A stretch of DNA of 64,000 bases from the NCBI GenBank assembly GCA_036960375.1, contig JBALVY010000001.1, positions 576,563-640,562 of the forward strand, written 5' to 3'. Source of the DNA: Pseudomonadales bacterium. GTDB taxonomy: Bacteria; Pseudomonadota; Gammaproteobacteria; Pseudomonadales; CAWVSB01. Below are positions 1,303 to 26,518 of the stretch, piece by piece. A program made the position numbers and the translations under genes. Each line of letters opens with the position of its first letter. Position 1 is the first letter of the stretch. The notes beneath the pieces were generated by a model. The model saw nothing but the letters and a program-made list of their open reading frames with translations. It was not told the DNA's origin and made no database searches.

Positions 1303-2505
1303 TCATGCGTATCCGTCGATCAGTGTATCACCCGTTGGCACTTGCAGTAGCTTCTTACCTGCTAGCGCCATGCTGTTGTTGTAGTGAACAGATCCGTGGG
1401 TTGAGACAGTGCGGCAGTCGCGGAAGTGACGTTGTACCGGGTTGCGCCCTATCTGGCCGGTCACGCCCATCATGGCCGATAGATCGTGCACCGCGTCTCG
1501 GCATAGCCTAGCGACATAGGCCATCTGCTGACGCGAACGCAGGCGCTCGGTACCCTTGAGTTGCTCGTGTGCCATGCCGCGTTCATGCAGCATTGTACAT
1601 AGCTGGTCCGTCAGTAGTTCTGCCGTGGCAATGCGCACCTCGACCTCACCGACAGCGATCTGTACCGGCACCTGGTCGACAATGGTTTCACCGCGCATGG
1701 CGCCAACCCTGTCGATGGTTGAATCGAGATATTGCTCCAGGGCGCCGCGTGCTGTGCCCAGCAATGGGCCGGCCAGCAGGGTGCCAAAGTAGGAGGGCAT
1801 CTCGGTGTGGTAAATGTACTTGTCGTGGAGCTTGGACCCCGGAGGCTTCTGGCCGGAGAAGGATTTGTGATCGATAATCCGAGAGGCGGGAATGAACTGA
1901 TCCTTAACTACAACGTCATTGCTGCCGGTTCCTTTGAGTCCCTCGGCGACCCAGGTGTAGAGAATCTCGAACTCACCCGGCAGTAGCATAATATGGTGAG
2001 TAGGCATCCCCTTGTCCTTGGCTGACACCAGCACGCAGTCGGCGTGATCCACGCCACTGGCAAAACCCCACCTGCCGTTGGCAATGTAACCGCCATCTAC
2101 CGGTTCGAGCGAGCCACCACCGGCCGACGCCGTGGATATGATGGCATCCGGATGGTTCGGCCAGAATTCTTCCTGAGTCTCTGCGGGGAAGCGTGCCAGC
2201 ATCCAGGTGTGCGACAGCACGATGGAACTGATCCAGCCGGTTGATCCGCATCCGCGGGATATTTCGCGACTAACGTCTACGTGGGTGCCCCAATCCATCT
2301 CAAAGCCGCCGTAGCGACGTGGTGCGAATATTTTGTGCAATCCAGCCGCCTTCAGGTCTGCTATGGTTTCGTCTGGGATTTTACCCATGTCCTCGGTCGC
2401 GCTTGCACGTTCGCGCAATATTGGCACAAGGTTCTTGGCTGCAGTGACGAGTTCTTCTCGGCTTGGCACGTAACTAGGGGTTTGCTTCGATGCGCTTTTT
2501 AGCAT
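1303..2505 (-). CDS. Acyl-CoA-dehydrogenase-fold flavin-dependent monooxygenase, oxygenase component (HsaA / HpaH-C2 / DszC-like)
   Basis: 400 aa. RRYGGFEMDWGTHVDVSREISRGCGSTGWISSIVLSHTWMLARFPAETQEEFW and GRWGFASGVDHADCVLV are typical of group-D two-component monooxygenases rather than true ACADs. It lies 46 nt upstream of the MFS gene on the same strand. Confidence 0.8.
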   Translation of the reverse strand: MLKSASKQTPSYVPSREELVTAAKNLVPILRERASATEDMGKIPDETIADLKAAGLHKIFAPRRYGGFEMDWGTHVDVSREISRGCGSTGWISSIVLSHTWMLARFPAETQEEFWPNHPDAIISTASAGGGSLEPVDGGYIANGRWGFASGVDHADCVLVSAKDKGMPTHHIMLLPGEFEILYTWVAEGLKGTGSNDVVVKDQFIPASRIIDHKSFSGQKPPGSKLHDKYIYHTEMPSYFGTLLAGPLLGTARGALEQYLDSTIDRVGAMRGETIVDQVPVQIAVGEVEVRIATAELLTDQLCTMLHERGMAHEQLKGTERLRSRQQMAYVARLCRDAVHDLSAMMGVTGQIGRNPVQRHFRDCRTVSTHGSVHYNNSMALAGKKLLQVPTGDTLIDGYA

Positions 2506-2602
2506 GTTATAAGTGTCCTGTGTTCACTTGAGCCTGTTTGATCCGTTGGCGGTGTTGTTACCATGGGTGCAATACTTCCATGCTGCGCCTGTCTTAACGA
2601 TA

Positions 2603-2687
2603 AGCCCACATTGTGGTCAGGCGGGCACAGGCAGCGGCGCCCGCAATGTGGGCTGGATGCTATTAAGGGATAGCCTGAGTAGCATCC
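2603..2687. promoter_or_regulatory. Nested palindromes in the divergent promoter region (candidate operator or stem-loops)
   Basis: AGCCCACATTG (2603-2613) and CAATGTGGGCT (2644-2654) form a perfect 11-nt inverted repeat enclosing GCGGGC...GCCCGC. GGATGCTA (2655-2662) and TAGCATCC (2680-2687) follow, then TGCTTTTG. Function not established. Confidence 0.25.
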
Positions 2688-2721
2688 TGCTTTTGATGAA
2701 CAGCTTGGGGTTTACTGACAT

Positions 2722-5028
2722 ATGTCTGCCTTGCCTACGGCCGCGCCCCTGTCAGGGGTGAAAGTCCTTAACTGCGGAACGGCAGGTGTAGGCCCGTGGG
2801 CTGCATCACTGTTGGGTTTCCTGGGTGCCAGCGTGTTCAAGATTGAGCGTCCAGGCGGTGATTTCATCCGCCTGATGTACCCTCGTCGCAACGGTGTTGG
2901 TGCTGCCTATCCCGCTTTTAACGCTGGGCAGCGAGTGCTTACGCTGGACCTCAAGGATCCCGTCGACTGCGAGCGCTTTGATGAGCTGGTCCGTGACAGC
3001 GACGTGCTGATAGAAAATTTCCGGCCGGGCGTGGCAGAACGTCTGCACATGGGTTACGAGCGGGTGCGCGCGATAAACCCTGGAATCGTTTACGGCTCTA
3101 GTTCGGCCTGGGGTGACTCCGGACCAATGCGGGACCAGGCGGCCGTTGACCCACACCTGCAGGCCTTTAGCGGATTCGCAGCGCTTAATGGTGAGGTCGG
3201 TGGCCCCCCCGAAATGCTGCGCTCGGTCCATATCGATCCTAATGGCTCTGTATACCTTGCGGCTCTGCTCATACTCGGCTTGCTACAACGCAATCGCATT
3301 GGCACGGGTATGCGCTTGGGTACGTCCCATTTTGCGATGGCGTTAGCAATGCAAAGTACTCGCATCGCCGAATTGCTATCCCAGGATGATGTGCTGCCGC
3401 GCATGGGTAGTGCCTGTATCGCCAGTGCACCGAACCAGTGTGTGCGCACGGCCGACGGGCAGTACCTGGCGGTGACCGCTGAGAGCGATCACCAGTGGGC
3501 CGGATTGTGTCGAGCACTGCAGCGCCCCGATTGGTTACATGACGACCGTTTCGGCAGCAATACTGATCGCTGCCTAAACCGAGAGGTCCTGGCGCGCCTG
3601 CTGGAAGCTGAGTTCCTGCGGTTCCCGCAGCGCTGGTGGATATCGCGTCTGGAGCAGGAGAACGTGCCTCATAGCCGACTGCTCGATTACGACGACTTGC
3701 GCTTCCACCCACAGATACTTGATAACGCTTACCTGTCCACCCTCGATACTGAGGAGGGGGCGGTCGTGGTTGGGGGCTTGCCTTGGCATTTCAGTCGTAC
3801 GCCTGCCCGGCTCAGTACCGCGGGTGCAGACGAGTCGGTAGCGCAGGTGGCGGCGTCCGAGGTGTCCGCTGACCCTGAGGTCGCTCCTTTGCATGAGCTC
3901 ACCGTCATCGACGCCAGTGAAGGTTATAGCGGGCCACTACTAAGCCTGTTACTGGCCGACTCTGGGGCAACTGTTATCAAGGCGGAATTGCCCGCCGGAG
4001 ATTGGGCCCGGCATCTAGAGCCCGCAGATACAGCCGGTAGCAGCGCTCTTTTTGAAGCCCTTAATCGCAACAAGCGCGGGCTGCCGATCGCACCCGATAA
4101 AGCCAACAGTCGGACCGAGTTCGACTTACTGCTCGCAGTGGCTGATGTGCTGGTCTACGATGCCAACTCGCTGCTGGCTCAGCAGTGGGAATTGAGTGAA
4201 GCGGCACTGCGCGAACGTTACCCGCGGCTGGTGCTTGTTGAGCTCAGTGCCTACGGGCCACAAGGGCCGCTTGCGGCCAGTACCGGCAGTGAACTGACGG
4301 CGCAAGCGATGACCGGCTACCTGCGCAACCTCGGTCGTCCCGACGGTCCACCGGTGAGAGTGGGTGCGGATATTGCCACTACAGGCACTGCTGCCATGGC
4401 CCTGGTGGGCACGTTGGCCGCGCTGTATGAGCGTGAACGATCGGGCGCTGGCCAGCGGATTCAGTGCAGCTTGCTCGGGACCCTGATGTCCATGCGGAGC
4501 TTGCGCTGGGCTTCATTGGACCGTCCCGATGCCTGGCGGGGTACCGATTGCGGGGCTACCACGGACAACCCCTGGCTGGGCTACCAGACCCGGGATGGCT
4601 TTATCTGGCCCTCCCTCAGAACAGTTCGCGAGAACGCCGATCTGCAGTATCTGCTGGAGCAGCTCGGTGTACCGGAAGACATGCGCCTGGCAGCTGAAAT
4701 GAAGGAGATGCCGAGCGAGACTATCGGCCTCGGCTATCTGGCGCGTCAGTGGCAGGCGCGGTGGGATAGTGTTCTCGGTAAGCTCTCACGCGATGTCGTG
4801 TTGGCACAGTTTCACTCAGCCAGAGGCATTGCTGTTGAGTTCAGTGAACTGCACGAAATTGTCAGCCATCCCCAGACACAGACCCTTGGCATTTTTGAGC
4901 AGAGCGGTGGGCGGCGCTATATGCGCGCACCCTGGTCCGCGCCCTGGTCGCTGCCGCCGCTCCAGTTAGCGCCTACCCATCCAAAATGGGTCGGCATCGA
5001 TGTTAATTCAGAACACACAAAGGCCTAA
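2722..5028 (+). CDS. Double-domain class III (CaiB/BaiF) CoA-transferase, DddD-like architecture
   Basis: 768 aa. The N-half begins LSGVKVLNCGTAGVGPWAASLLGFLGASVFKIERPGGD. A second transferase half restarts near aa 392: LHELTVIDASEGYSGPLLSLLLADSGATVIKAELPAGD. Both halves keep an Asp at the expected catalytic position (HIDPNGS; VGADIATTGT). Paralog of 23200..25470. Confidence 0.85.
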   Translation: MSALPTAAPLSGVKVLNCGTAGVGPWAASLLGFLGASVFKIERPGGDFIRLMYPRRNGVGAAYPAFNAGQRVLTLDLKDPVDCERFDELVRDSDVLIENFRPGVAERLHMGYERVRAINPGIVYGSSSAWGDSGPMRDQAAVDPHLQAFSGFAALNGEVGGPPEMLRSVHIDPNGSVYLAALLILGLLQRNRIGTGMRLGTSHFAMALAMQSTRIAELLSQDDVLPRMGSACIASAPNQCVRTADGQYLAVTAESDHQWAGLCRALQRPDWLHDDRFGSNTDRCLNREVLARLLEAEFLRFPQRWWISRLEQENVPHSRLLDYDDLRFHPQILDNAYLSTLDTEEGAVVVGGLPWHFSRTPARLSTAGADESVAQVAASEVSADPEVAPLHELTVIDASEGYSGPLLSLLLADSGATVIKAELPAGDWARHLEPADTAGSSALFEALNRNKRGLPIAPDKANSRTEFDLLLAVADVLVYDANSLLAQQWELSEAALRERYPRLVLVELSAYGPQGPLAASTGSELTAQAMTGYLRNLGRPDGPPVRVGADIATTGTAAMALVGTLAALYERERSGAGQRIQCSLLGTLMSMRSLRWASLDRPDAWRGTDCGATTDNPWLGYQTRDGFIWPSLRTVRENADLQYLLEQLGVPEDMRLAAEMKEMPSETIGLGYLARQWQARWDSVLGKLSRDVVLAQFHSARGIAVEFSELHEIVSHPQTQTLGIFEQSGGRRYMRAPWSAPWSLPPLQLAPTHPKWVGIDVNSEHTKA

Positions 5029-5030
5029 CA

Positions 5031-6188
5031 GTGGATTTCAAATTACCTGAACAGACCCAAATGATTAAAGACACGGCGCGCCGCGTTGTGAATGAACACT
5101 TCATGCCGTTGGAGCAACAGCTGGCCGACCGGGAAAGTACCTATGAGGTCCCGCCTGAGGTCCATGCGAAACTCGCGACTACCCTCAAAGACTTGGGATT
5201 GTGGGCGCTGGAAGTGCCCGAGGAGCTAGGCGGTGCTGGTCTGGGTATCCTCGACCATTGTGCTGTCATGGAAGAAGCCTGGCGTTGCACCGCAGGCCGG
5301 CGCCTGTGGGTCTCGCTATTTTTTCCTGTTTTGAACCAGCTCGGCACCATCGATCAGAAAGAAAAATACCTGTATCCAAGTATCAGTGGTGCCATCCATG
5401 GGGCGTCGGCGTTTTCGGAGCCTGGCGCCGCCGGCGATCTGGCCGGAATCAGCACTACTGCCACGCAAGTGGCGGACGGCTGGCTGCTTAACGGTACCAA
5501 GTGTTGGATTACATACGCCGACACGGCTAGCTATGTATTGGTTCTGGCGCGCATGCCTGGTACTCGGCGTCACGACGGCATGACCTGGTTCGTGGTCGAC
5601 GCCAATTCGCCGGGTTTCGAGGTAACGCGTCGCCAGCAGATGATTCATGGCCACCCCACCTTTGAGCTGATGCTGAATGACTGCCTGCTGCCCCATGATG
5701 CTATTCTGGGCGAGCCCGGACAGGGTTTTGCCTCAGGTGCTAACGCCCTGTTCCGAGGTCGTATGACGATTTCAGCTCGCGCTCTGGGTAGCGCCGAGCG
5801 CTGCATGGAAATGATGGTCAGCTACGCCAACGAGCGCCATACTTTCGGCAAGCCCCTGGCCAGCCGGCAGGCGATCCAGTGGATGATTGCCGATTCTGCG
5901 CTAGAGTTACACAACCTGAGATCCATGCTGGTTCGCACCGCCTGGGATGCAGATCAGGGCAAGTCAATGCGAACCCAGACCGCTATGCTGAAACTGCAGG
6001 CTTCCGAAGTCGCTGGCCGCATCGCAGATCGAGCGGTGCAAATTCATGGTGCTGCAGGACTATCTACTGACATGGTGCTTGAGCGCATCTACCGAGATGT
6101 TCGTCCCATGCGTATCTACGAGGGGACATCCGAAGCGATGCGTAGCATGATCGCCAAGAATATTCTGGCGGGTGACCCATGGCAGTGA
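5031..6188 (+). CDS. Acyl-CoA dehydrogenase
   Basis: 385 aa. GTG start 2 nt after the upstream stop. Canonical ACAD layout with the C-terminal RIYEGTSEAMR catalytic-Glu motif. Confidence 0.9.
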   Translation: MDFKLPEQTQMIKDTARRVVNEHFMPLEQQLADRESTYEVPPEVHAKLATTLKDLGLWALEVPEELGGAGLGILDHCAVMEEAWRCTAGRRLWVSLFFPVLNQLGTIDQKEKYLYPSISGAIHGASAFSEPGAAGDLAGISTTATQVADGWLLNGTKCWITYADTASYVLVLARMPGTRRHDGMTWFVVDANSPGFEVTRRQQMIHGHPTFELMLNDCLLPHDAILGEPGQGFASGANALFRGRMTISARALGSAERCMEMMVSYANERHTFGKPLASRQAIQWMIADSALELHNLRSMLVRTAWDADQGKSMRTQTAMLKLQASEVAGRIADRAVQIHGAAGLSTDMVLERIYRDVRPMRIYEGTSEAMRSMIAKNILAGDPWQ

Positions 6189-7639
6189 ACGCGCAATCTA
6201 TCGCGGCGCAACTTTCCGCACTGCCACTGTCTATGACCATAGATGGTATTGCTGTCGCCGCCGCCAAACAGCTCGATGTTATTAACCCGTCTACTGCCAC
6301 GGTGCTTAGCACCGCGCCGGATGCCAGTCCTGCCGAGATCGACCTGGCGGTGGATGCCGCCGCTCGTGCTTATCCTGCCTGGTCCGGACTGCCGATGGCG
6401 ACCCGCCGGACCGCTATCATGGCGCTGGCCGATGCACTTGAGGCTAATCGCGATGAGCTTACGCTGATCAATTCGCTGGAGTGCGGTGCGCCACTGAAGG
6501 TGGCCCGCTCAGTGGATGTCGCAATTCGCTACCTCAGGACAATCGCCGCTTTCGAGTTGCCGGTAGAGATACTGCGAGAGGACGCTACCCAACGTATCGA
6601 ACTGATGCGGGTGTCACTAGGAGTCGTTGCAGCTATTACGCCCTGGAATGCCCCCCTAACCCTGGCAGCCGCAAAAATTGCCTCTGCGCTGCTTGTGGGC
6701 AACACTATGGTGTTGAAACCCTCGCCTTTCGCGCCGTTGGCGACCCTGCGGCTGGGACAATTGGCCAGTGAGATTTTCCCGGCTGGCGTGCTTAATGTGG
6801 TCAGCGGCGGCGCGGCGGCGGGGGAGTCGCTGACGGGTCACCCGGACGTTGCCAAAGTGTCTTTCACCGGTTCGGTAGAGGTTGGTAAGCACATTATGTC
6901 CGCCGCCAGCGGTGGGCTGAAGCGTCTTACCCTCGAGCTTGGAGGCAATGACGCCGCAATCGTCCTGTCCGATACCGATCCCGTGGTAGCGGCGGCGGGT
7001 ATCGCTCGCATCGCTTTCTCTAATTGCGGTCAGTTCTGCATGGCGATCAAGCGCGTCTACGTCGAGCGACCGGTGGCCGAGGCCCTGTGTGATGCCCTGG
7101 TCAGGGAAGTATCGGCGAAGCGACTGGGTTCGGCCCTCGATCCAGGCACCGATATCGGCCCGGTGCAAAATGAACAGCAGTACCTGCGTCTGCAGGCCCT
7201 GCTTGAGGACACAAAAGCAGCCGGTGGCCGGTTTCTACTGGGCGGCGGAATTGGCGAGGTTTCTACAGGAGGCGGCTATTACATTTCGCCCGCTATTGTG
7301 ACCGGTCTCGATGAAACCGCTGAACTGGTGGCCAATGAGCAGTTTGGTCCCGTGCTGCCGGTGCTGGTAGTGGACTCCGCTGAGGAAGCTCTGGCGCGGG
7401 CCAATGCGAGCCGGTTCGGGCTGGGTGGCTCCGTTTGGGGCGCTGATGTGGCAAGGGCCACCGCCCTGGCGAGGCAGATGCAAGTGGGCACTGCTTGGGT
7501 AAATCAGCACGGCGCTCTGGACGCGGCGGTACCCATGAACGGGTGCAAAGAATCGGGCCTGGGTATTGAATATGGCATTGATGGTTTAAAGGGCTACACC
7601 GCACCCCGGGTGGTCAATATTCTGAAAACTACGAGATAA
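6179..7639 (+). CDS. NAD(P)+-dependent aldehyde dehydrogenase
   Basis: 486 aa. ALDH motifs LELGGND and FSNCGQFCMA (catalytic Cys). The start overlaps the ACAD stop (ATGGCAGTGA). Confidence 0.9.
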   Translation: MAVNAQSIAAQLSALPLSMTIDGIAVAAAKQLDVINPSTATVLSTAPDASPAEIDLAVDAAARAYPAWSGLPMATRRTAIMALADALEANRDELTLINSLECGAPLKVARSVDVAIRYLRTIAAFELPVEILREDATQRIELMRVSLGVVAAITPWNAPLTLAAAKIASALLVGNTMVLKPSPFAPLATLRLGQLASEIFPAGVLNVVSGGAAAGESLTGHPDVAKVSFTGSVEVGKHIMSAASGGLKRLTLELGGNDAAIVLSDTDPVVAAAGIARIAFSNCGQFCMAIKRVYVERPVAEALCDALVREVSAKRLGSALDPGTDIGPVQNEQQYLRLQALLEDTKAAGGRFLLGGGIGEVSTGGGYYISPAIVTGLDETAELVANEQFGPVLPVLVVDSAEEALARANASRFGLGGSVWGADVARATALARQMQVGTAWVNQHGALDAAVPMNGCKESGLGIEYGIDGLKGYTAPRVVNILKTTR

Positions 7640-7659
7640 AAAACGAGGCAGAATTAACA

Positions 7660-8028
7660 ATGACGGCGACAAACACAGCAGCAACACAGCGGCGGGTGGT
7701 CAAGGACAAGCCTGCTCATTTTTTCGACAGCCCTGAGACGGACATCCTTATGTCTATGGTGCTGGCCCTGGCGGGTGAGCTTTCGGTAGTGCGCGAGCGA
7801 CTCGATACCCACGAAAGGTTGAGCCAGTCCCAGGGCGGTTTCGACCCGGATGCGGTTAATCGTTATAAGCCGGATGCCGAGGTTGTGGCGCAGCGCAGCG
7901 CTGCGCGTAATAAGTATCTGAAACGCGTTCTTAGGGAAGCGCTGAACGAGGTGAGTAGAGCCAGTGACACGGACCCGCTTCTGTCCGGTGAAGCGCTGGC
8001 CGACATACTGACAGGACAAGGAAAATGA
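7660..8028 (+). CDS. Small predicted alpha-helical protein S1, family not recognised; paralog of 10417..10740
   Basis: 122 aa. It aligns without gaps to S2 over about 78 residues, roughly one third identical, sharing V-x-R-[ED]-R-L-D-T-x-E-x-L and P-D-x-E...Y. Its stop overlaps the start of the downstream methyltransferase (ATGA at 8025-8028). Confidence 0.6.
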   Translation: MTATNTAATQRRVVKDKPAHFFDSPETDILMSMVLALAGELSVVRERLDTHERLSQSQGGFDPDAVNRYKPDAEVVAQRSAARNKYLKRVLREALNEVSRASDTDPLLSGEALADILTGQGK

Positions 8029-9218
8029 GCAAACACATAACACCCGAAAATTACACTGGCGGCTTTGAGGGTCACCCTATGCTGCCGCAAACCGACCATG
8101 ACGAGCACGCGCAACAGGCTTTTGTGCTCAGTCTAAAGCAGCTGGTCAATGGCGAATTACTGGCGGGCACCCGTCAGTTATGCGAGCGCAAAGCCCGGGA
8201 AGAGCTTGGGCTGGACAGCACTCCAGCGCCAGAGGCCAGACATGCAGTACGTAAAATGATGGCCGGCACGTCGAGCTACCGTATCTGGAGTTCGCTGCTG
8301 CGCAATTCGCAGGAGCTGCTGTGGGACTACGTGGGCGAAAGCGTGGATCGACAGTTGGATGAACTGAATACCCGCGCAAACAGTATAGAAACACCGCTTG
8401 GCTCGCTGCGGCTGAATCCGGATTTCATGCTGCCCGGCTATCTTGCGGCAGTTGATCAGCACATTATGCCAGGTGGCTATGGCGACAACCCGGCGGACGA
8501 TGATGTTCGCTCCGGCGCTGTGTATGACCGCGGTGCCGCCCTATACCACATGGGGCAAGTTAATCTGCTCAACGACGTCCGCGGGCATACGCTGGCCGCT
8601 TATTTGCAAGATGTCTACGGTGAGCTGAAGCCGCTGCGCATTCTCGATATGGGCTGTACAGTTGGGCACAGTACCCTGGTGCTGTGTGACTATTTTCCCG
8701 ATGCCGAGATCCACGCCATCGACGTGGGCCCATCACAGTTGCGTTATGCCCATGCCCGCGCCGAACATTTGGGCAAGACCGTGCATTTCTCACAGCAGTC
8801 AGCGGAGTCTACCGACTTCGAGTCAGGCAGCTTTGATCTTGTGGTGTCCAGTGCGATGTTCCACGAGACCTCAACTGCCGCAGTACCGCAGATCATGCGC
8901 GAATGCATGCGCCTTTTGCGCCCGGGTGGTATTTGCGCGCACGCCGAGGTGCCCGTGCGCTACGACCGGATGCCGGTAGCCGACGTACTCATAAGGGACT
9001 GGCAGACCTACCATAACGGTGAGCCTTTCTGGGGTGGATGCGCGACTACCGATTTCGGTGCGGCACTCGAAGATGCCAGTTTTGTCGACGTGCAAACCGG
9101 TTTCCAGCCGGCGACCCGCGACGCCACTGATCCGACCCGTGGCCACTTTAGTAGCGAGGGTGATGCCTCCTTTCGCTACTGGTATCTGTTCGGAGGTAAG
9201 AAACCCAGTGATGCATGA
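8025..9218 (+). CDS. Class I SAM-dependent methyltransferase MT1 with an N-terminal extension of about 190 aa
   Basis: 397 aa. Motif I is ILDMGCTVGHST and post-I is IHAIDVGP; LLRPGG is also present. The N-terminal extension is shared with MT2 (QAF, LLWD, PGGY, DDV-x-x-GA). Confidence 0.8.
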   Translation: MSKHITPENYTGGFEGHPMLPQTDHDEHAQQAFVLSLKQLVNGELLAGTRQLCERKAREELGLDSTPAPEARHAVRKMMAGTSSYRIWSSLLRNSQELLWDYVGESVDRQLDELNTRANSIETPLGSLRLNPDFMLPGYLAAVDQHIMPGGYGDNPADDDVRSGAVYDRGAALYHMGQVNLLNDVRGHTLAAYLQDVYGELKPLRILDMGCTVGHSTLVLCDYFPDAEIHAIDVGPSQLRYAHARAEHLGKTVHFSQQSAESTDFESGSFDLVVSSAMFHETSTAAVPQIMRECMRLLRPGGICAHAEVPVRYDRMPVADVLIRDWQTYHNGEPFWGGCATTDFGAALEDASFVDVQTGFQPATRDATDPTRGHFSSEGDASFRYWYLFGGKKPSDA

Positions 9219-9281
9219 TCCGGAAAAAATCGTTGATCTATATGAATCAATCCCATTAAGCAACCAAGAGGGAAAATCACA

Positions 9282-10415
9282 ATGAGTCAGGAAAATGCTA
9301 CGGCCATGCGGCCGACTCCCACTCATGACGAACAGTCGCGCCAGGCGTTTGACGGTCTGTTGCGCGCACACCTGCGCCAACACGTCTTGCCTGCGGTCAC
9401 TACATTATACGAGGAACGGGTGTTGCCAAAGTTCCGCAAGGAGCACGAGCGTGATCCGGCCACGAAAAGTGAAGTAGCCAAGGCGATGACCGCGGAGAAT
9501 TACTATCAGACCTGGAGTTACATGCAGCGTCTGAGCCAGCAATTATTGTGGGACTCGGTGATCGATTCGGTAGAGCGTTCCTTGCCGGAACTTATCGAGA
9601 GGGCAAAGGGCTTGACCGAGCTGGGGTCACTGACGCTCGACCCGGAGTTGGAAATACCGCGCTACCACACCTCCCATGACATTCATCAGCAGCCCGGTGG
9701 CTATCATTCCGAGTTCACCGAGGACGACGTCGCTGCGGGTGCGATATTTGATACCGGAGTGCCTATCTATTCGGGTGGTATCATGGGCGCAGCCAACGAT
9801 GTGCTCGGGCAAACTGTCGTCAGTTACTTCCGTGACACGTTTGCGCAACGCAAACCGTCCAAAATTCTCGATCTGGGTTGTGCGATAGGTAACTCTACCG
9901 TGCCCTGGGCTCAGGCATTCCCGGAGGCGGAAGTGCACGGTCTTGAAGTGGGTGCACCATGTTTGCGTTATGCGCATGCCCGGGCAAACGCGATGGGTGT
10001 GGAGGTGCATTTTCATCAGCAAAATGCCGAGTCCATGAACTTTCCCGATGAAAGCTTCGACCTGATCACCTCGTGTATTCTACTGCATGAAACATCGGTG
10101 CCCGCCCTGGCCAATATCCTGCGAGAATGCCACCGCCTGTTGAAGCCGGGAGGCATCATGATGCACCAGGATGGCTCGCTGACGTCATCCTGGGAGCCGC
10201 TGCGTGCATTCATGGCAGACTGGGAGGTAAGCAATAACAATGAGCCTTTTCTCGGCACCCTACGTAACCTTGATCTTCAGCAGGCCTATGTTGCGGCCGG
10301 ATTTGCGCTGGAAAAAATCAACTTCACTACAGCCCCGGTAGGCGGCAGCCAGCCCGCCCAGCGCGGTTATTTAAGTGGTTTTGGTGCAGTTCCGATCTAT
10401 TTGGCGGAGAAATAA
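9282..10415 (+). CDS. Class I SAM-dependent methyltransferase MT2, paralog of MT1
   Basis: 377 aa. Motif I is ILDLGCAIGNST; VHGLEVGAP and LLKPGG are also present. It has the same N-terminal extension as MT1. RBS GAGGGAAAA lies upstream. Confidence 0.8.
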   Translation: MSQENATAMRPTPTHDEQSRQAFDGLLRAHLRQHVLPAVTTLYEERVLPKFRKEHERDPATKSEVAKAMTAENYYQTWSYMQRLSQQLLWDSVIDSVERSLPELIERAKGLTELGSLTLDPELEIPRYHTSHDIHQQPGGYHSEFTEDDVAAGAIFDTGVPIYSGGIMGAANDVLGQTVVSYFRDTFAQRKPSKILDLGCAIGNSTVPWAQAFPEAEVHGLEVGAPCLRYAHARANAMGVEVHFHQQNAESMNFPDESFDLITSCILLHETSVPALANILRECHRLLKPGGIMMHQDGSLTSSWEPLRAFMADWEVSNNNEPFLGTLRNLDLQQAYVAAGFALEKINFTTAPVGGSQPAQRGYLSGFGAVPIYLAEK

Positions 10416-10416
10416 C

Positions 10417-10740
10417 ATGTCTGACACAGAAACAAAAGTAAAACTCGCTCGGGTAGCCCGAGGCAAACGCCCCGCGTATCTGGATGACAGGGCGATCGAT
10501 AACCTCTATGCCATTGTGGTCACCATGATGCAGGAAAATGTGGTGTTGCGGGACCGCTTAGATACACTGGAACTGCTGCTTGAGCGGCAGGGTGTTGTGT
10601 TACAGCAGCAAATAGAAACGTTCGTGCCAGACAAAGAGGCAGCCGACTCTCGCGAGCAGCGCAACAGGTCCTATATCGAGAAGTTGTTTCGCTGCCTGCA
10701 GGATGACCGCCAGCAGTTTGACGACAAGGTACAGGCATAA
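10417..10740 (+). CDS. Small predicted alpha-helical protein S2, paralog of S1
   Basis: 107 aa from ATG 10417 (MSDTETKVKLARV...), 1 nt after the MT2 stop (TAA c ATG). The track ORF 10375..10740 is an upstream extension into MT2. Confidence 0.6.
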   Translation: MSDTETKVKLARVARGKRPAYLDDRAIDNLYAIVVTMMQENVVLRDRLDTLELLLERQGVVLQQQIETFVPDKEAADSREQRNRSYIEKLFRCLQDDRQQFDDKVQA

Positions 10741-10759
10741 TGATTGTTCCGCAGGAGAT

Positions 10760-12265
10760 ATGCGTGTGAGTAAAAATGGCCTGAGCACGGAAACTCTTGC
10801 GTTTCTGCAAGGTCCCCGTAGCCTTCTTATTAATGGAGAGGCGGTGACAGGTAGCGGCGAGACCGTATCGATTGTTGACCCTTCGAGCGGAGAAGTCATC
10901 TGTGATTTCCCGTTGGCGTCAGCTGCGGATATCGACGCTGCGGTGACTGCAGCACGCAGTGCATTGACGCGGCCGAGCTGGTCCGGTATGTCAGGTTACG
11001 AGCGTGCGACATGCCTTTACCGACTGGCAGACCTGATAGAGGCTCATGCCGAGACCCTGGCGGAAATCGAGTCGCTGGATTTTGGCATGCCGATCCGGAT
11101 GAGCCGAGCGATGATGGCGAGCGTGCCGAGCAAGCATCTGCGTTACTGCGCTGGCTGGGCCACGCGCCTCGACGGCACTACCAAAAGCAGTTTCCCCGAT
11201 ACGCAAACCGGTGGCATCCACGGTTTTACGTTTCGAGAGCCGGTGGGGGTAGTGGGAGCTATAATTCCCTGGAATTCACCCATGGTTATGGCCATCATTA
11301 AGCTGGCTCCGGCCTTGGCTTGTGGCTGTACTATCGTGCTCAAACCCTCCGAGCTCACCCCGCTGACCGCCCAGTATCTCGGTGAGCTTGCGGCGGCAGC
11401 AGGGTTTCCGCCCGGCGTGATCAATATCGTACCGGGCCTTGGCTACGAAGCCGGGCAGGCGCTGGTCGATCACCCGCTACTGGCGAAGATAGCATTCACC
11501 GGTTCCAGTAATGCGGCCAGGGCTATTGTCGGATCTGTGGCTGAAAAGCTGACGCCTGTGGCGCTGGAACTGGGTGGTAAGGCTCCGGCCATTATCTGCG
11601 CCGACGCCAATCTGGACGCGGCGGCGCGCGTGGCAGCGGGCAGCTGTACCTCACTACAGGGGCAAAGCTGCGCAGCGATTACCCGTATTTATGTCGAGCG
11701 CGCGGTATACCCGCAGTTCCTGGAACGTCTCACTGCAAACCTGCAGGCGCTAAAAATAGGACCGGCGCTGGACGAAAGTAGCAGTCTCGGTCCACTGGTT
11801 TCCGCCTCCCAGTACCAGCGCGTGCAATCGTATATCGCTGCGGGTATTAGTGCAGGCGCCACGGCGCTTTCAGTCAGTTCGACACTGCCGGAGGGCGACG
11901 GTTTTTATATCGCACCGGTGATTTTCACCGACACCAAGCCCTCTATGTCGATAGTCTCTGATGAGATATTTGGGCCGGTGGTAGTGGTTGAGCCCTTCGA
12001 CTCGCTGGATGAGGCGATAGCCCTGGCGAACGATTCGCCCTATGGCCTGTTTGCCAGTGCCTGGACTGCCAGTATCGACAAGGCTCATTTTCTAATGAGG
12101 GTGCTGGATGTAGGTTACGTGGCCATCAATGGCTCGGGGGCGTTCGATGCCTCCATGCCCTTCGGCGGAGTCAAGCAATCCGGCTGGGGGCGCGAATTCG
12201 GCGAGGAGTCAGTGACTCACTACACCCGTATTAAGACGGTTGCTGTCACCTACGACGTCTCCTGA
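10760..12265 (+). CDS. NAD(P)+-dependent aldehyde dehydrogenase
   Basis: 501 aa from ATG 10760 (MRVSKNGLSTETLAFLQGPRSLLINGEAV), preceded by GGAG. Motifs LELGGKA and QGQSCAAITR. The track start at 10703 would overlap S2. Confidence 0.9.
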   Translation: MRVSKNGLSTETLAFLQGPRSLLINGEAVTGSGETVSIVDPSSGEVICDFPLASAADIDAAVTAARSALTRPSWSGMSGYERATCLYRLADLIEAHAETLAEIESLDFGMPIRMSRAMMASVPSKHLRYCAGWATRLDGTTKSSFPDTQTGGIHGFTFREPVGVVGAIIPWNSPMVMAIIKLAPALACGCTIVLKPSELTPLTAQYLGELAAAAGFPPGVINIVPGLGYEAGQALVDHPLLAKIAFTGSSNAARAIVGSVAEKLTPVALELGGKAPAIICADANLDAAARVAAGSCTSLQGQSCAAITRIYVERAVYPQFLERLTANLQALKIGPALDESSSLGPLVSASQYQRVQSYIAAGISAGATALSVSSTLPEGDGFYIAPVIFTDTKPSMSIVSDEIFGPVVVVEPFDSLDEAIALANDSPYGLFASAWTASIDKAHFLMRVLDVGYVAINGSGAFDASMPFGGVKQSGWGREFGEESVTHYTRIKTVAVTYDVS

Positions 12266-12345
12266 CCGCGATTTCATCCTGCCAGGCGGTAATCCGAGTC
12301 GCAGGCAGGTTCCCTTTCTGGAGAGATCGCTTTCTGTGCTGGGTA

Positions 12346-13632
12346 CTAGCCCGCCTGTTTTTCTTTGATAAACGCCAGGTTGGAGGATTCAACCTTTTCT
12401 ATCCAGCCGTCATACCTTTTCAGCGTTTGCGAAAACGGCTCTACCGATCCTGCCAGATAATCCAGCAGGTTGGCGGGTTTGAGTCCCGGTATAACGCTGC
12501 GCAGTGCCTCATTAATCCGGATTTTGGTTTCGTAGCGCTTGCGTAGCTTGGGCTCCAGCGGCATGGCGTAAATGCTGAGTCGCAGTAGCGCATGCATATC
12601 GGGAACCCGTGACGCGGTGTATGCTTCCAGGGCTTTGCCGCGGTCGCCCGAAAACTGTTTCAGCAGGCGCGCGATGATAACCGCGTCTTCCAGAGACGAG
12701 TTACACCCCTGACCGACGCTTGGCGGCACGGCATGGGCTGCGTCACCAAGTAGGCAGGCGTGGTTTTCAAAGTGGTAGCGGTCTAGCTTGATCGTGCGGC
12801 ACTGGAGGATTTTCCGTTCGAGGAAAGCCTTACGCTCATCCTCGGGGACAGCTGCGACCACTTCCGGGCAGCTTTTCTCCATCATCGACCACTGGTGACC
12901 GGCGTTGGTGGTTTCCTCGTTGCTGGCAGCGAATACCAGATTGCAGGTGGCCGTTCCGTTGGGATTTGGTATCGCGCCAACCATCAGGCCGCCGGGTAAC
13001 AGCCAGGCGTGCAACTCGTTGGGCCCTATAGACAGCTGGTCGCGACCATTCTTGTCGAGATAGAAATTTCGATATACCCGAGAGTAGGGTTTATCCTCAC
13101 AGGCGAAATCGGCGTCCCGCTCCAGCACTTGGCGCAGTCTGGAACCGGCCCCGTCGGCACCGAACAGAAGGTCATAGGCCTCGATCGTGTTTTGGCCCTG
13201 CATACTGAAATGAACCTCTTTTTGCTGCAGGTCCACATCGGTGCATTGTGCGCCAAAATGAATGTGGAAACGCTCGGAATTTAATTCCTCCAGCGAATCG
13301 AGCAAGCACTGTATCAACTCGTTGCGTTCACAGAGCCTAAATGGCTCCTTGACTTTGTTGCGCCGGACTGCCGGCGGCATCCAGTTGCGCATGCGCTCCT
13401 CGATCAGGACACAACGCCGGCTTACAGTCTCATCCAGACCGCTGATCTGCGCCAGGGCGTCAAAGCCACGCTTGAAAATAGCGAAGGAAAAACTCTTCTC
13501 GTTCTCCCTGTCCTGCAGTGCGTCGGCCCGTTCAAACACGTGAATGTCGCTGTTGGGTTCCGATTCGAGTAGTAGTCTGGCAAGCAGCAGACCGGCGGGG
13601 CCGGCTCCAAGAATGACAATTTTTTCGCGCAT
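12346..13632 (-). CDS. Group-A FAD-dependent monooxygenase (kynurenine-3-monooxygenase-like)
   Basis: 428 aa. N-terminal IVILGAGPAGLLLARLL dinucleotide fold. LLGDAAHAVPPSVGQGCNSSLEDA motif. Confidence 0.85.
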   Translation of the reverse strand: MREKIVILGAGPAGLLLARLLLESEPNSDIHVFERADALQDRENEKSFSFAIFKRGFDALAQISGLDETVSRRCVLIEERMRNWMPPAVRRNKVKEPFRLCERNELIQCLLDSLEELNSERFHIHFGAQCTDVDLQQKEVHFSMQGQNTIEAYDLLFGADGAGSRLRQVLERDADFACEDKPYSRVYRNFYLDKNGRDQLSIGPNELHAWLLPGGLMVGAIPNPNGTATCNLVFAASNEETTNAGHQWSMMEKSCPEVVAAVPEDERKAFLERKILQCRTIKLDRYHFENHACLLGDAAHAVPPSVGQGCNSSLEDAVIIARLLKQFSGDRGKALEAYTASRVPDMHALLRLSIYAMPLEPKLRKRYETKIRINEALRSVIPGLKPANLLDYLAGSVEPFSQTLKRYDGWIEKVESSNLAFIKEKQAG

Positions 13633-13790
13633 AATGGTCTCTGTAGTTTGGTAGCGAATTACTGGATAGGGTTATAATAGGACGTCCCCCGGTTTGCGCC
13701 TACCTGTCCGCATAGTGGGCTTGTCGCGCGATCAATCGGCTCCACGCTAGGATTAGCACTAATCTTTCCATCCACTTTACCACTAGGATA

Positions 13791-14630
13791 TTGAGAGCCG
13801 TGAATAAAAAACCTCTACGCCCCATCACCCAGGATCTCATCGATCAGTATGAACGAGACGGCGTTGTCTGCGTCCGAGGTATGTTTGACCCGGAGTGGCC
13901 TGAACTATTGTTGAAAGCGTTTGAACGGATCGAACATGACCCGGAAGAGCATGGCCTTCTTCCCTGGGCTATTGGCGGCTACAAATATCTGTGGCATAAA
14001 GTGCCGGAATTTCGATCCTACGTGCTCGACTCTCCGGCTGCTGAGGTGGTGGGGCGAGTCATCGGTGCCAGTTATACCCGCTTCTTTTTTGATCAGGTGT
14101 TCGCCAAGGACCCCCGTTCCACCAAGCCGACGGTTTGGCACAATGATATTCCCGGCTGGCCCACCGACGGCGAGCAGATACCCTCGTTCTGGATGGCCCT
14201 GACGCCTGTGTGCAAGGCCAACAGCCTCGAGTGCATCGCCGGCACGCACAAGGACGAAACCGTGTACTGGAATATCACCAACAACTCCCGCAAGATGATC
14301 CAGCCGCCGGACCGGCACCGCTGCCCGGATATGAATTTGCGGCGTGACGACCCGGATCTACAGTTCCTGAGCTGGGACATGGAGCCGGGTGATGCCCTGG
14401 TGATTCATCCTCGGGTATTGCATTATTCCAGCGGTAATCCGACTGACCAGCGCCGTGTTGCCCTGTCCACCCGTTGGGGTGGTAGCGATATTGTCTGGAA
14501 TCCCCGGCCAGAGTGCATGAATTTGCCAGGTATCTCGTTTGACGAAATGATTCCGGGGAAGAAACCCTCCGGTCCACTGTTCCCACTTGTTTGGGAGGCC
14601 ACGCCCGGTGCTGGTAATGAGGATTTATGA
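13791..14630 (+). CDS. PhyH-family Fe(II)/2-oxoglutarate dioxygenase
   Basis: 279 aa. ITQDLIDQYERDGVVCVRG is a PhyH-type N-terminus. WHND provides the H-x-D facial triad and VLHYSSGN the distal His. The start is uncertain (TTG 13791 or GTG 13799). Confidence 0.8.
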   Translation: MRAVNKKPLRPITQDLIDQYERDGVVCVRGMFDPEWPELLLKAFERIEHDPEEHGLLPWAIGGYKYLWHKVPEFRSYVLDSPAAEVVGRVIGASYTRFFFDQVFAKDPRSTKPTVWHNDIPGWPTDGEQIPSFWMALTPVCKANSLECIAGTHKDETVYWNITNNSRKMIQPPDRHRCPDMNLRRDDPDLQFLSWDMEPGDALVIHPRVLHYSSGNPTDQRRVALSTRWGGSDIVWNPRPECMNLPGISFDEMIPGKKPSGPLFPLVWEATPGAGNEDL

Positions 14631-14669
14631 CATATTTTACGCTTTTAGTAACCCGTTCTCCGGCTATGT

Positions 14670-16079: not shown

Positions 16080-16155
16080 GCTTAGCGCTAATGCGTGTCC
16101 AGGTGTGCAGCGCGCAGGTAGGATTGGTTTTTTTTACCAGCGCCCGGGCTGGCTC

Positions 16156-16962: not shown

Positions 16963-17070
16963 GTCGCTAGCGTCCTTCCTGATTAATCTGCATTACTTCG
17001 GGTTGCCAAGCGCTAATGAAATGCGGTGAATCCTGATAGGGCCCATCATAGCACCCCTTGTCGATTGGGA

Positions 17071-17898: not shown

Positions 17899-18078
17899 AG
17901 TGTTTACCCGATAATGGATGGTTGAGGAGGCAACAAAAACATAAAGATAAACACATTTTGCGAGTACACCAACATGCCCGCGATGTGGGCTGCTTTTAAT
18001 CGCAAATTTATTGGAGAATACTCGCACTTGAAACGTGATCCACCAATTCTTGGCGCGCAGCATAGGAAACATATACTA

Positions 18079-20709: not shown

Positions 20710-20726
20710 GTACAGGAGATATAAAA

Positions 20727-22230: not shown

Positions 22231-22304
22231 CAAGTCATGTATCCCGGTAATGGAGTTTTTAGCATGAGCGCTCAGAGACGTCAGCTGAATGCCCTCGTTG
22301 TCCT

Positions 22305-26468: not shown

Positions 26469-26473
26469 CAGGC

Positions 26474-26499: not shown

Positions 26500-26518
26500 T
26501 AAAGGGAATATGCTTTGT

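What the first reader, a model, noticed from the sequence alone, without database searches (positions are those of the whole stretch)
2722..5028. Double-domain class III CoA-transferase (DddD-like architecture) present twice within 23 kb
Both 2722..5028 (768 aa) and 23200..25470 (756 aa) consist of two complete CaiB/BaiF halves in one polypeptide. Each half keeps the Asp at the expected catalytic position (HIDPNGS, and VGADI[AT]). Established knowledge: most class III CoA-transferases are single-domain proteins of about 400 aa. The well-known tandem-domain member is DddD, the DMSP CoA-transferase/lyase of marine gammaproteobacteria. Here the context lacks the usual ddd partners I would expect (BCCT transporter, DddB-type alcohol dehydrogenase, LysR). 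Instead it has an ACAD, ALDHs, methyltransferases and oxygenases. These proteins may therefore be a distinct tandem-CaiB clade acting on another zwitterionic or carboxylate substrate.
Basis: partly seen in the sequence, partly recalled or inferred. Interest (0 to 1): 0.65.

Follow-up and report, generated by a model that had tools for sequence, protein, structure and literature searches.

The report
Non-DddD two-domain CoA-transferase paralogs
Two genes in a marine bacterial catabolic gene cluster each encode a fused double class III CoA-transferase that is real and is not the DMSP enzyme DddD, but belongs to a large, already recognised and mostly uncharacterised group of such fusions in which only one half keeps the standard catalytic residue.

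Summary
Both ORFs exist as described: 2722-5028 (768 aa) and 23200-25470 (756 aa). Each has two complete CoA_transf_3 halves, and the two proteins are 53% identical. The catalytic-residue claim is only half right. The N-half Asp (D172/D167) sits at the canonical nucleophile position and is invariant in 120 relatives. The C-half has T/G there, has lost the ENFRPG loop, and carries an invariant Asp 2-3 residues upstream instead.

They are not DddD. The best local match to a bona fide DddD is 31% over 197 aa, both are under 800 aa, there are no ddd partner genes, and DddD has the opposite polarity (Asp in its C-half).

Tandem class III CoA-transferases are common. A 2018 paper catalogued 2,401 and characterised a second member, PtmU4. 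About 110 of the 150 best 50%-identity clusters here are tandems, and almost all are asymmetric.

This clade is widespread in marine Alpha- and Gammaproteobacterial metagenomes. It travels with orthologous short-chain-type acyl-CoA dehydrogenase, MFS_2 transporter and alpha/beta-hydrolase genes.

Most likely each protein is a single-chain pseudo-heterodimer with one canonical active site. It would activate an unknown carboxylate for the co-translated dehydrogenase. This is a moderately interesting new variant of a known kind.

The parts
2722..5028 (+). Tandem class III CoA-transferase A (768 aa; NCBI MEH6548840.1, 'MAG: CoA transferase [Pseudomonadales bacterium]')
   Evidence: ORF and translation. 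PF02515 in two stretches, E 1.8e-150. Exact database match. AF2 model pLDDT 91.6, pTM 0.94.
2740..3819 (+). A, N-half (residues 7-366): canonical YfdE/Frc/SUGCT-like subunit
   Evidence: Best PDB sequence matches are Frc at 154 bits, SUGCT at 146 and YfdE at 145. ENFRPG loop at 3013-3030. 43 invariant columns against 20 in the C-half.
3235..3237 (+). Codon of D172, predicted nucleophile at the canonical position
   Evidence: Ungapped alignment to the catalytic Asp of YfdE, Frc, 4ed9 and SUGCT, and to about D178 of BbsEF chain B. Invariant in 120/120.
3820..3882 (+). Inter-half linker (residues 367-387), low confidence and poorly conserved
   Evidence: pLDDT below 50 at residues 372-378. Linker region length varies from 26 to 44 residues in the family.
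3883..4971 (+). A, C-half (residues 388-750): divergent subunit without the canonical Asp and without ENFRPG
   Evidence: PDB matches are weaker (YfdE 82 bits). ENFRPG is replaced by YDANSL. C-halves form their own clade with 88% NJ bootstrap support.
4369..4380 (+). D550-I-A-T553: invariant displaced Asp (4369-4371) and the canonical-position codon, which encodes Thr (4378-4380)
5031..6188 (+). Acyl-CoA dehydrogenase (385 aa). Its GTG start lies 2 nt after the stop of A. Conserved partner of the family.
   Evidence: Pfam ACAD N/M/C domains. Closest solved structure is short-chain ACAD, 244 bits. Orthologs at 52-84% identity lie next to or near family members in 5 other contigs. Junction sequence.
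23200..25470 (+). Tandem class III CoA-transferase B (756 aa; MEH6548857.1). D167 at 23698-23700, displaced D551 at 24850-24852, canonical-position G554 at 24859-24861.
25467..26468 (+). Flavin reductase-domain protein (333 aa). Its ATG overlaps the stop of B by 4 nt (ATGA).
   Evidence: Pfam Flavin_Reduct, E 6e-43. Junction sequence. Same arrangement in the Tara scaffold.
14670..16079 (+). MFS_2 transporter, conserved partner
   Evidence: Pfam MFS_2, E 2.7e-86. 42-47% identical orthologs in three distant contexts.
17071..18072 (-). Alpha/beta-hydrolase, conserved partner (second copy at 22305-23099 +)
   Evidence: Pfam hits. 40-46% identical orthologs lie immediately downstream of the CoA-transferase in L005 and L008.
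1303..30753 (.). About 29 kb catabolic cluster holding both paralogs. Genes: HsaA/HpaB-like oxygenase, A, ACAD, two ALDHs, two methyltransferases, FAD hydroxylase, PhyH dioxygenase, MFS_2, IclR, hydrolases, TonB receptor, NmrA-like proteins, two flavin reductases, B, Amdase-like protein.
   Evidence: Pfam and NCBIfam scans. The same gene order is conserved on Tara scaffold_452. GC is 0.55-0.60 inside and 0.46-0.51 beyond 30 kb.

Best explanation
A and B are single-chain versions of the interlocked class III CoA-transferase dimer, that is, pseudo-heterodimers.

The N-half is a complete YfdE/Frc/SUGCT-type subunit. Its Asp172 (A) or Asp167 (B) is the nucleophile that forms the acyl-aspartyl anhydride and aspartyl-CoA thioester intermediates.

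The C-half keeps the fold and most Rossmann-type motifs. It has lost the canonical Asp and the ENFRPG loop. It serves mainly as the obligatory partner subunit that completes the N-half active site. The Asp-less subunit of the heteromeric benzylsuccinate CoA-transferase BbsEF plays the same role.

The enzyme transfers CoA from an unknown acyl-CoA donor to a carboxylate. That carboxylate is generated in the cluster by the hydrolase and aldehyde-dehydrogenase steps from a compound imported via the TonB receptor and MFS_2. For A, the acyl-CoA product is oxidised by the translationally coupled short-chain-type acyl-CoA dehydrogenase.

Shown: architecture, residue status, non-membership of DddD, conserved gene partners. 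Inferred: single active site, CoA-transfer chemistry, pathway role. Unknown: the substrate.
For: - Two PF02515 halves in each protein. The single-chain model is confident: pLDDT 91.6, pTM 0.94. Each half matches solved class III monomers with target TM-scores of 0.80-0.89 but covers only about half of the query (TMq 0.44).
- The N-half Asp is canonical and invariant, and ENFRPG is kept.
- The C-half canonical column is T/G/S/E/A and ENFRPG is lost.
- The BbsEF chain-A entity likewise has Tyr at the canonical column, while the chain-B/D entity carries the D178-CoA adduct.
- Asymmetry is the rule among 268 relatives: about 176 tandems are (Asp, non-Asp), about 38 are (non-Asp, Asp) and only 12 are (Asp, Asp).
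- N- and C-half trees are congruent, so there was one ancestral fusion.
- The ACAD partner is orthologous (52-84% identical) beside or near family members in Gamma- and Alphaproteobacterial contigs, along with MFS_2 (42-47%) and the hydrolase (40-46%).
- No acyl-CoA synthetase lies in the 1-30 kb cluster. A transferase is therefore the only route to a CoA ester there.
- PtmU4, a characterised two-domain relative, is a monomer in solution (PMC6006322 supplement).
Against: - The C-half is not a decayed scaffold. It keeps the GP loop, the K-x-E...GDW motif, NRNK, the G-x-x-GP motif and QAMTGY.
- It has an absolutely invariant R-V-G-A-D motif 2-3 residues from the canonical position. That motif could be a displaced nucleophile or a second ligand site.
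- I could not inspect model coordinates, so the position of D550 relative to a CoA pocket is unknown.
- B is not adjacent to an ACAD.
- There is no biochemical data for any member of this clade.
Confidence: 0.6

Rival explanations
1. Both halves are catalytic. The invariant C-half Asp (D550/D551) is a nucleophile displaced by less than one helical turn. Each polypeptide would then carry two different active sites, for example two substrate specificities, or CoA transfer plus a second reaction as in the transferase/lyase DddD.
For: - D550 is invariant in 120/120 relatives, together with R546 and G548.
- Asp at -3 occurs in 171/220 degenerate halves. It is not among the five commonest residues at that position in canonical halves or in single-domain relatives.
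- In the model, D550 sits just before helix 551-574, and D172 sits at the start of helix 171-193.
- The C-half keeps many Rossmann-type motifs.
Against: - The ENFRPG CoA-phosphate loop is lost in the C-half.
- The C-half evolves faster: 20 invariant columns against 43, and 48% against 58% identity between A and B.
- The Asp-less BbsEF subunit has an Asp at -4 yet is not where the CoA adduct is reported.
- The Frc entries in the PDB include an Asp169 to Glu mutant. From my own knowledge, not checked here, Frc mutants show that the nucleophile geometry is tight.
Confidence: 0.2
2. They are dddD paralogs: DMSP CoA-transferase/lyases that release DMS.
For: Same two-domain architecture and a marine gammaproteobacterial host.
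Against: - The best BLASTP HSP to a bona fide DddD is 73 bits, 31% over 197 aa. That reference is L011, 837 aa, 66% identical to E. acroporae DddD, followed by an Fe-ADH.
- Each half scores higher with E. coli YfdE (159 and 101 bits) than with either DddD half (41-74 bits).
- DddD has the opposite polarity: Asp602 in its C-half and none in its N-half.
- At 768 and 756 aa, both fall below the field criteria of at least 800 aa and at least 40% identity (PMC9327192).
- There are no dddB/C/T/R-type neighbours.
Confidence: 0.02
3. They are PtmU4-type thioacid-forming enzymes that transfer sulfur onto an acyl-CoA.
For: [quoted passage not shown]
Against: - PtmU4 is about 600 aa with a truncated first domain, and its catalytic Asp430 is in the C-terminal domain. 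Here the Asp is in a full-length N-half.
- More than 90% of thioacid-group members have a PtmA3 acyl-CoA synthetase within 2 genes. None is near A or B.
- No sulfur-carrier protein genes were seen.
- A direct sequence comparison was not possible.
Confidence: 0.03
4. The proteins act on acyl-CoA without transferring CoA, for example as MCR-like racemase/epimerases that prepare a branched acyl-CoA for the stereospecific ACAD.
For: Family III includes alpha-methylacyl-CoA racemases. The N-half has an invariant His170-x-Asp172 pair. The pairing with an ACAD would fit such a role.
Against: - The N-half is much closer to transferases (145-155 bits) than to MCR/FAR (88-93 bits).
- No acyl-CoA synthetase in the cluster could supply the CoA ester.
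- The H-x-D pair is also common in single-domain transferase-like relatives.
Confidence: 0.07

Closest known systems
DddD (DMSP CoA-transferase/lyase; Marinomonas A6W2K8, Endozoicomonas acroporae, Amphritea locus L011)
   Same: Two class III CoA-transferase halves in one polypeptide, joined by a poorly conserved linker. Only one half carries the canonical Asp. Found in marine Proteobacteria.
   Different: There is no specific sequence relationship: 31% over 197 aa, and the halves are closer to YfdE than to DddD halves. The polarity is opposite. DddD has Asp602 in its C-half and none in its N-half, and it keeps SFRPG in the N-half. DddD is about 70 aa longer. It has dddB-type neighbours, whereas here the neighbours are an ACAD, MFS_2 and a hydrolase.
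[quoted passage not shown]
   Same: Members of the recognised two-domain subgroup. PtmU4 is monomeric, which fits a single-chain pseudo-dimer. One catalytic Asp.
   Different: PtmU4 has a truncated first domain (about 600 aa in total), its Asp430 is in the second domain, and it is paired with an acyl-CoA synthetase and sulfur-carrier proteins. None of these features is present here.
Heteromeric class III CoA-transferases, e.g. succinyl-CoA:(R)-benzylsuccinate CoA-transferase BbsEF (PDB 9fn0/9fol)
   Same: An asymmetric pair. One subunit carries the nucleophile (D178, aligned with D172 here). The other lacks the canonical Asp (Tyr there, with an Asp a few residues upstream). The N-half scores better with the catalytic entity (119 against 72 bits). 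The C-half scores better with the Asp-less entity (71 against 57 bits).
   Different: BbsE and BbsF are separate polypeptides, whereas here the two are fused. Similarity is only about 25-28% identity, so this is a functional analogy and not shown orthology.
Single-domain YfdE / Frc / SUGCT-type CoA-transferases
   Same: Closest sequence and fold relatives of both halves. The N-half keeps their nucleophile and ENFRPG loop.
   Different: Those enzymes are homodimers with two identical sites. No NCBIfam equivalog cut-off is reached (best about 260-270 bits against cut-offs of 442-750).

Membership tests
Class III (CaiB/BaiF, PF02515) CoA-transferases | Significant match to the PF02515 profile over the whole domain | tested here: met
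   Two stretches per protein, E 1.8e-150 and 1e-159. The N-half covers profile positions 1-357 or 1-361 of 366.
Class III (CaiB/BaiF, PF02515) CoA-transferases | Catalytic Asp at the canonical position (Frc Asp169 / YfdE Asp173 equivalent): N-half | tested here: met
   D172 (A) and D167 (B) align to the nucleophile in four solved enzymes. Invariant in 120/120.
Class III (CaiB/BaiF, PF02515) CoA-transferases | Catalytic Asp at the canonical position: C-half | tested here: not met
   T553 (A) and G554 (B) occupy the canonical column in five HMMER alignments and a single-domain HMM. hhalign puts it at A552. An invariant Asp lies 2-3 residues upstream.
Class III (CaiB/BaiF, PF02515) CoA-transferases | Large-domain/small-domain fold forming an interlocked dimer | tested here: inconclusive
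   The fold of each half matches YfdE, SUGCT and Frc (target TM-score 0.80-0.88), and the single-chain model has pTM 0.94. Coordinates could not be inspected, so interlocking itself was not verified.
Class III (CaiB/BaiF, PF02515) CoA-transferases | CoA-transfer activity through Asp-bound intermediates | not testable with these tools
   Needs enzyme assays.
DddD | At least 40% identity to a ratified DddD and at least 800 aa (criteria used in PMC9327192) | tested here: not met
   31% over 197 aa, 73 bits, against the L011 DddD. Lengths are 768 and 756 aa. Criteria taken.
DddD | Canonical Asp in the C-terminal domain only | tested here: not met
   DddD has P/S in the N-half and D602 in the C-half. 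The window proteins are the reverse.
DddD | ddd neighbourhood (Fe-ADH DddB, ALDH DddC, BCCT DddT, LysR DddR) | tested here: not met
   No Fe-ADH, BCCT or LysR gene in 1-30 kb. The DddD locus L011 has an Fe-ADH directly downstream. ALDHs are present here but resemble StyD or aminobutyraldehyde-DH types and fall below cut-offs.
DddD | DMS release from DMSP | not testable with these tools
   Needs heterologous expression and gas chromatography.
[quoted passage not shown] 2018, PMC6006322) | [quoted passage not shown] | tested here: met
   Definition taken.
PtmU4-type thioacid group | Conserved catalytic Asp in the C-terminal domain (Asp430) with a truncated N-domain | tested here: not met
   Here the Asp is in a full-length N-half and the C-half canonical column is T/G. 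PtmU4 features.
PtmU4-type thioacid group | PtmA3-like acyl-CoA synthetase within 2 genes | tested here: not met
   No AMP-binding gene in 1-30 kb. The nearest is at 57268-58818.
PtmU4-type thioacid group | Sequence similarity to PtmU4 at the network threshold (E <= 1e-80) | not tested
   The PtmU4 sequence was only partly recoverable, from a corrupted OCR of the supplementary alignment.
Heteromeric BbsEF-type class III CoA-transferases | One subunit with the nucleophile Asp and one without | tested here: met
   D172 aligns to about D178 of entity B. The C-half canonical column aligns to Tyr of entity A.
Heteromeric BbsEF-type class III CoA-transferases | Two separate polypeptides encoded by adjacent genes | tested here: not met
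   A single ORF of 768 or 756 aa with no internal stop.

The most novel reading that the evidence does not exclude
The invariant, displaced Asp of the C-half (the R-V-G-A-D motif) marks a second, non-canonical catalytic or CoA-ester-binding centre. These proteins would then be single-chain two-site enzymes: CoA transfer plus a second step such as elimination, hydrolysis or an internal CoA relay, analogous to the transferase/lyase duality of DddD but evolved independently and with reversed domain order. The conserved module of tandem CoA-transferase, ACAD, MFS_2 and hydrolase would be an unrecognised, widespread marine pathway for an abundant carboxylate or ester.
Probability: 0.15. Interest if true: 0.6.

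Novelty: new variant of a known kind. Interest (0 to 1): 0.35.

Why it matters
Two-domain class III CoA-transferases are numerous, but only DddD and PtmU4 have been characterised. Both carry their catalytic Asp in the second domain and both perform unusual chemistry.

The clade found here has three distinguishing features:
- It has the opposite polarity.
- It appears to have arisen by an independent fusion.
- It is abundant in marine Alpha- and Gammaproteobacterial metagenomes, and more distant relatives occur in Chloroflexota MAGs.

It is locked to an orthologous dehydrogenase, transporter and hydrolase set.

Practically, the result warns against annotating such proteins as DddD and counting them in DMSP-lyase surveys. 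It also provides a simple residue test, namely which half carries the canonical Asp, to sort tandem CoA-transferases. Finally, it nominates a conserved four-gene module whose substrate is worth identifying.

Tried and rejected
- Fold search against AFDB50, intended to find DddD and other tandems by structure: the library was unavailable.
- tblastn of the whole protein and of the inter-half junction against plasmids, intended to fish out a DddD: it returned only single-domain genes onto which both halves were stacked, and no DddD.
- Persicobacter pPP8, where the junction query hit two adjacent genes: both are ordinary single-domain YfdE-like genes that keep the canonical Asp. This is not a split form of the family.
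- The Alcolombri et al. 2014 DddD paper could not be read, and a search for 'Asp602' found nothing relevant. The Asp602 position was recovered directly from the Amphritea DddD sequence instead.
- A search for a DddD structure paper found none. The PDB holds no tandem class III enzyme, since all hits cover one half only (TMq 0.44).
- No BbsEF structure paper was found. The subunit asymmetry was read from PDB sequence alignments instead.
- Reconstruction of the PtmU4 sequence from the supplementary alignment failed. The OCR is corrupted and the second half of the alignment is an image.
- Substrate assignment from NCBIfam: no equivalog cut-off was reached for the CoA-transferases, the ACAD, the ALDHs, the methyltransferases or the oxygenases.
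- Looking for cultured hosts among distant colinear relatives: only MAGs and metagenome contigs were found.
Full report
OBSERVATION. The window holds ORFs at 2722..5028 (+, ATG, 768 aa) and 23200..25470 (+, ATG, 756 aa). Each matches Pfam CoA_transf_3 (PF02515) in two stretches, with E = 1.8e-150 and 1e-159. The two proteins are 53% identical over their full length. The N- and C-halves of one protein are only about 26% identical. They are exact matches to NCBI proteins MEH6548840.1 and MEH6548857.1, 'MAG: CoA transferase [Pseudomonadales bacterium]', on a 1.07-Mb contig. No NCBIfam equivalog model reaches its cut-off. The best scores are for Frc, YfdE and mesaconate-transferase models at about 260-270 bits, against cut-offs of 442-750.

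CATALYTIC RESIDUES. For the N-half this is right. D172 of A (HIDPNGS) aligns without gaps to the nucleophile Asp of E. coli YfdE, Brucella Frc, 4ed9 and human SUGCT. It also falls at about residue 178 of the BbsEF chain-B entity, whose D178-CoA adduct is the title of PDB 9fol. D172 is invariant in 120 of 120 relatives.

For the C-half the claim is wrong. Five independent HMMER alignments place T553 of A at the canonical column: YfdE, SUGCT, Frc, the FAR/MCR racemases and BbsEF chain A. A single-domain HMM gives T for A and G for B. A profile-profile alignment of N-halves against C-halves gives A552. That column is variable in the family (S/E/A/G/T). The Asp of VGADI (D550 in A, D551 in B) lies 2-3 residues upstream and is itself invariant, together with R546 and G548.

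The C-half has also lost the ENFRPG loop that the N-half keeps; it reads YDANSL in A. It evolves faster than the N-half. It has 20 invariant columns against 43, and A and B are 48% identical in the C-half against 58% in the N-half. It does retain many Rossmann-type motifs: the GP loop, K-x-E...GDW, NRNK, G-x-x-GP and QAMTGY.

COMPARISON WITH DddD. No DddD sequence was directly available. I used the dddD qPCR primer published for Endozoicomonas acroporae (PMC7174347) to scan genome contigs. This recovered two loci:
- The 3' part of the E. acroporae gene (L012).
- A complete 837-aa tandem gene in an Amphritea MAG (L011). It is 66% identical to the E. acroporae protein and is followed by an Fe-alcohol dehydrogenase, the DddB type.

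Against this DddD, protein A gives only short local matches. The best is 73 bits, 31% over 197 residues. In an all-against-all comparison of halves, the scores were as follows:

| Half | YfdE | Frc | Sister half | DddD halves |
|---|---|---|---|---|
| A N-half | 159 | 115 | 77 | 48-74 |
| A C-half | 101 | 80 | 74-77 (by direction) | 41-61 |

A neighbour-joining tree puts the N-halves with YfdE and Frc. The C-halves form their own clade (88% bootstrap), and the two DddD halves sit on separate deep branches. Deep nodes are weakly supported.

DddD also has the opposite polarity. Its N-half has Pro/Ser at the canonical column while keeping SFRPG. Its C-half has the canonical Asp at residue 602. 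The field's working criteria for DddD are at least 40% identity to a ratified protein and at least 800 aa (PMC9327192). Neither is met. No BCCT transporter, Fe-ADH or LysR gene lies in the cluster. These proteins are not DddD.

HOW COMMON ARE TANDEM ENZYMES? Dong et al. 2018 (PMC6006322) explicitly divide type III CoA-transferases into one- and two-domain proteins. They catalogued 2,401 two-domain members. They also characterised a second member, PtmU4. PtmU4 is a thioacid-forming enzyme whose essential Asp430 lies in the C-terminal domain, and it is a monomer by gel filtration.

My exhaustive HMMER search of 1.84 billion cluster representatives found 43,173 relatives. Among the best 150 clusters at 50% identity, about 110 are 700-850 aa tandems. 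I classified all 268 retrieved proteins by the residue at the canonical column of each half:

| Pattern (N-half, C-half) | Approximate count |
|---|---|
| Asp, non-Asp | 176 |
| non-Asp, Asp | 38 |
| Asp, Asp | 12 |

The sample is biased towards relatives of the query. Even so, it shows that the architecture is common and that asymmetry is the rule. An Asp at -3 occurs in 171 of 220 degenerate halves. It is not among the five commonest residues at that position in canonical halves or in single-domain proteins. A few proteins carry the same GADI-type half in the N-terminal position.

THE CLADE AND ITS CONTEXT. The 120 closest database clusters (39-65% identical, 660-808 aa) are all tandems. They come from marine metagenomes and MAGs named Rhodospirillaceae, Alphaproteobacteria and Gammaproteobacteria, and several clusters have 100-290 member sequences. 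More distant colinear relatives include Chloroflexota and Dehalococcoidia MAGs. N-half and C-half trees are congruent, which indicates a single ancestral fusion. The A and B lineages are both old. A groups with P0002 and B groups with P0012, and those two lie on one Tara Oceans scaffold.

That scaffold reproduces the window's gene order:
- A, ACAD, ALDH, a small ORF, two methyltransferases, a small ORF, ALDH.
- Then an FAD hydroxylase, a PhyH dioxygenase, MFS_2, IclR and a hydrolase.
- Then a TonB receptor, an NmrA-like protein, a flavin reductase, a hydrolase, B, a flavin reductase, and further on an Amdase-like gene.

In distant members the recurring neighbours are as follows:
- In a Rhodospirillaceae MAG, a 380-385 aa ACAD lies directly downstream of the transferase.
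- In two abundant, untyped metagenomic lineages (P0076 and P0098; 40-42% identical to A), the ACAD lies two or three genes downstream, together with a hydrolase and MFS_2.
- In another contig, the ACAD lies four genes upstream with MFS_2 and a TonB receptor.

These partners are orthologous to the window genes: the ACAD at 52-84% identity, MFS_2 at 42-47%, and the hydrolase at 40-46%. Unrelated ACAD and MFS_2 genes elsewhere in the window are only 22-29% identical.

The ACAD is most like short-chain acyl-CoA dehydrogenases (244 bits). Its GTG start lies 2 nt after the stop of A. The stop of B overlaps the ATG of a flavin-reductase gene.

The rest of the cluster suggests aromatic or phenolic side-chain catabolism. 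It contains an HsaA/HpaB-like oxygenase, two flavin reductases, a StyD-like ALDH, an aromatic-ring FAD hydroxylase and an Amdase-like protein. Nothing reaches an equivalog cut-off. No acyl-CoA synthetase lies in the 1-30 kb cluster.

STRUCTURE. An AlphaFold2 model of A built on 73 family sequences is confident: pLDDT 91.6, pTM 0.94. Only the termini and linker residues 372-378 are disordered. Foldseek against the PDB finds only half-length matches. Target TM-scores are 0.80-0.89, query TM-scores are 0.44, and the hits are SUGCT, Frc, YfdE, BbsEF, Rv3272 and MCR. No tandem class III enzyme has been solved. In the model, D172 sits at the start of helix 171-193 and D550 sits immediately before helix 551-574. 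Coordinates could not be inspected.

MECHANISM. The best-supported reading is a single-chain pseudo-heterodimer. The N-half would be the catalytic subunit, with the Asp172/167 nucleophile and the ENFRPG loop. The C-half would be the obligatory partner subunit.

The natural analogue is the heteromeric benzylsuccinate CoA-transferase. There the chain-B/D entity carries D178. The chain-A entity has Tyr at the canonical column with an Asp four residues upstream. The N-half scores better with the catalytic entity, and the C-half scores better with the Asp-less one.

The enzyme would activate a carboxylate formed in the cluster to its CoA ester, and the coupled ACAD would then oxidise that ester. 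The residue status, the non-DddD identity and the conserved partners are shown. The single active site, the transferase chemistry and the pathway role are inferred. The substrate and the CoA donor are unknown. I put this at about 0.6.

The main rival, at about 0.2, is that D550 is a displaced nucleophile or marks a second ligand site, giving two different sites per chain. DddD-type, PtmU4-type and racemase-type functions are unlikely for the reasons given in their own entries.

VERDICT. The interpretation that this is a distinct, non-DddD clade is right. [quoted passage not shown]

What is new here:
- The reversed polarity relative to both characterised members.
- The family-specific displaced Asp.
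- The conserved CoAT-ACAD-MFS_2-hydrolase module across marine lineages.

This is a new variant of a known kind, of moderate interest.

Noticed in passing
window 2603-2613 and 2644-2654: A perfect 11-bp inverted repeat, AGCCCACATTG / CAATGTGGGCT. It lies in the divergent intergenic region between the HsaA-like oxygenase gene (1303-2505, -) and CoA-transferase A, and it is unique in the window. As single-stranded DNA it folds at -19 kcal/mol (z = -3.3 against shuffles). It could be an operator for the cluster's IclR regulator or a hairpin.
   Followed up: partly
window 1-30000 versus 30000-64000: GC content is 0.55-0.60 across the catabolic cluster and drops to 0.46-0.51 beyond about 30 kb. There the cluster ends and a CopA-like multicopper oxidase (30842-32779) and CopB (32793-33545) follow. 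The compositional step may mark an acquired island.
   Followed up: no
window 7660-10740: Two paralogous SAM methyltransferases (8025-9218 and 9282-10415) each have a roughly 190-aa N-terminal region without any Pfam hit. They are flanked by small no-hit ORFs (7660-8028 and 10375-10740). The same four-gene arrangement is conserved on the Tara scaffold (L001 14938-17984). Methyltransferases are unusual in a catabolic operon.
   Followed up: no
window 52969-63843: A second uptake and catabolism cluster: a luciferase-like monooxygenase, two ACADs, an AMP-dependent ligase, a second MFS_2 transporter, DUF3089 and a second TonB-dependent receptor. Its ACAD and MFS_2 genes are only 22-29% identical to those linked to the tandem CoA-transferases.
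   Followed up: partly
window 1303-2505 (-), 21511-22230 (+), 25467-26468 (+): An ACAD-fold HsaA/HpaB-C2-like flavin-dependent oxygenase (259 bits to the HsaA model, below its cut-off) and two flavin-reductase genes suggest a two-component phenol hydroxylase in the cluster. The 333-aa reductase has about 170 extra C-terminal residues without a Pfam hit.
   Followed up: no
proteins P0171, P0231, P0181, P0170: Some tandem relatives carry the GADI-type Asp-less half in the N-terminal position and the canonical half in the C-terminal position. The same two half types therefore seem to have been fused in both orders.
   Followed up: partly
L011 3896-6409 (-) and 2663-3895 (-): An Amphritea sp. MAG carries an 837-aa DddD-type gene, 66% identical to E. 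acroporae DddD, directly followed by an Fe-alcohol dehydrogenase. This is a probable dddD-dddB pair.
   Followed up: partly
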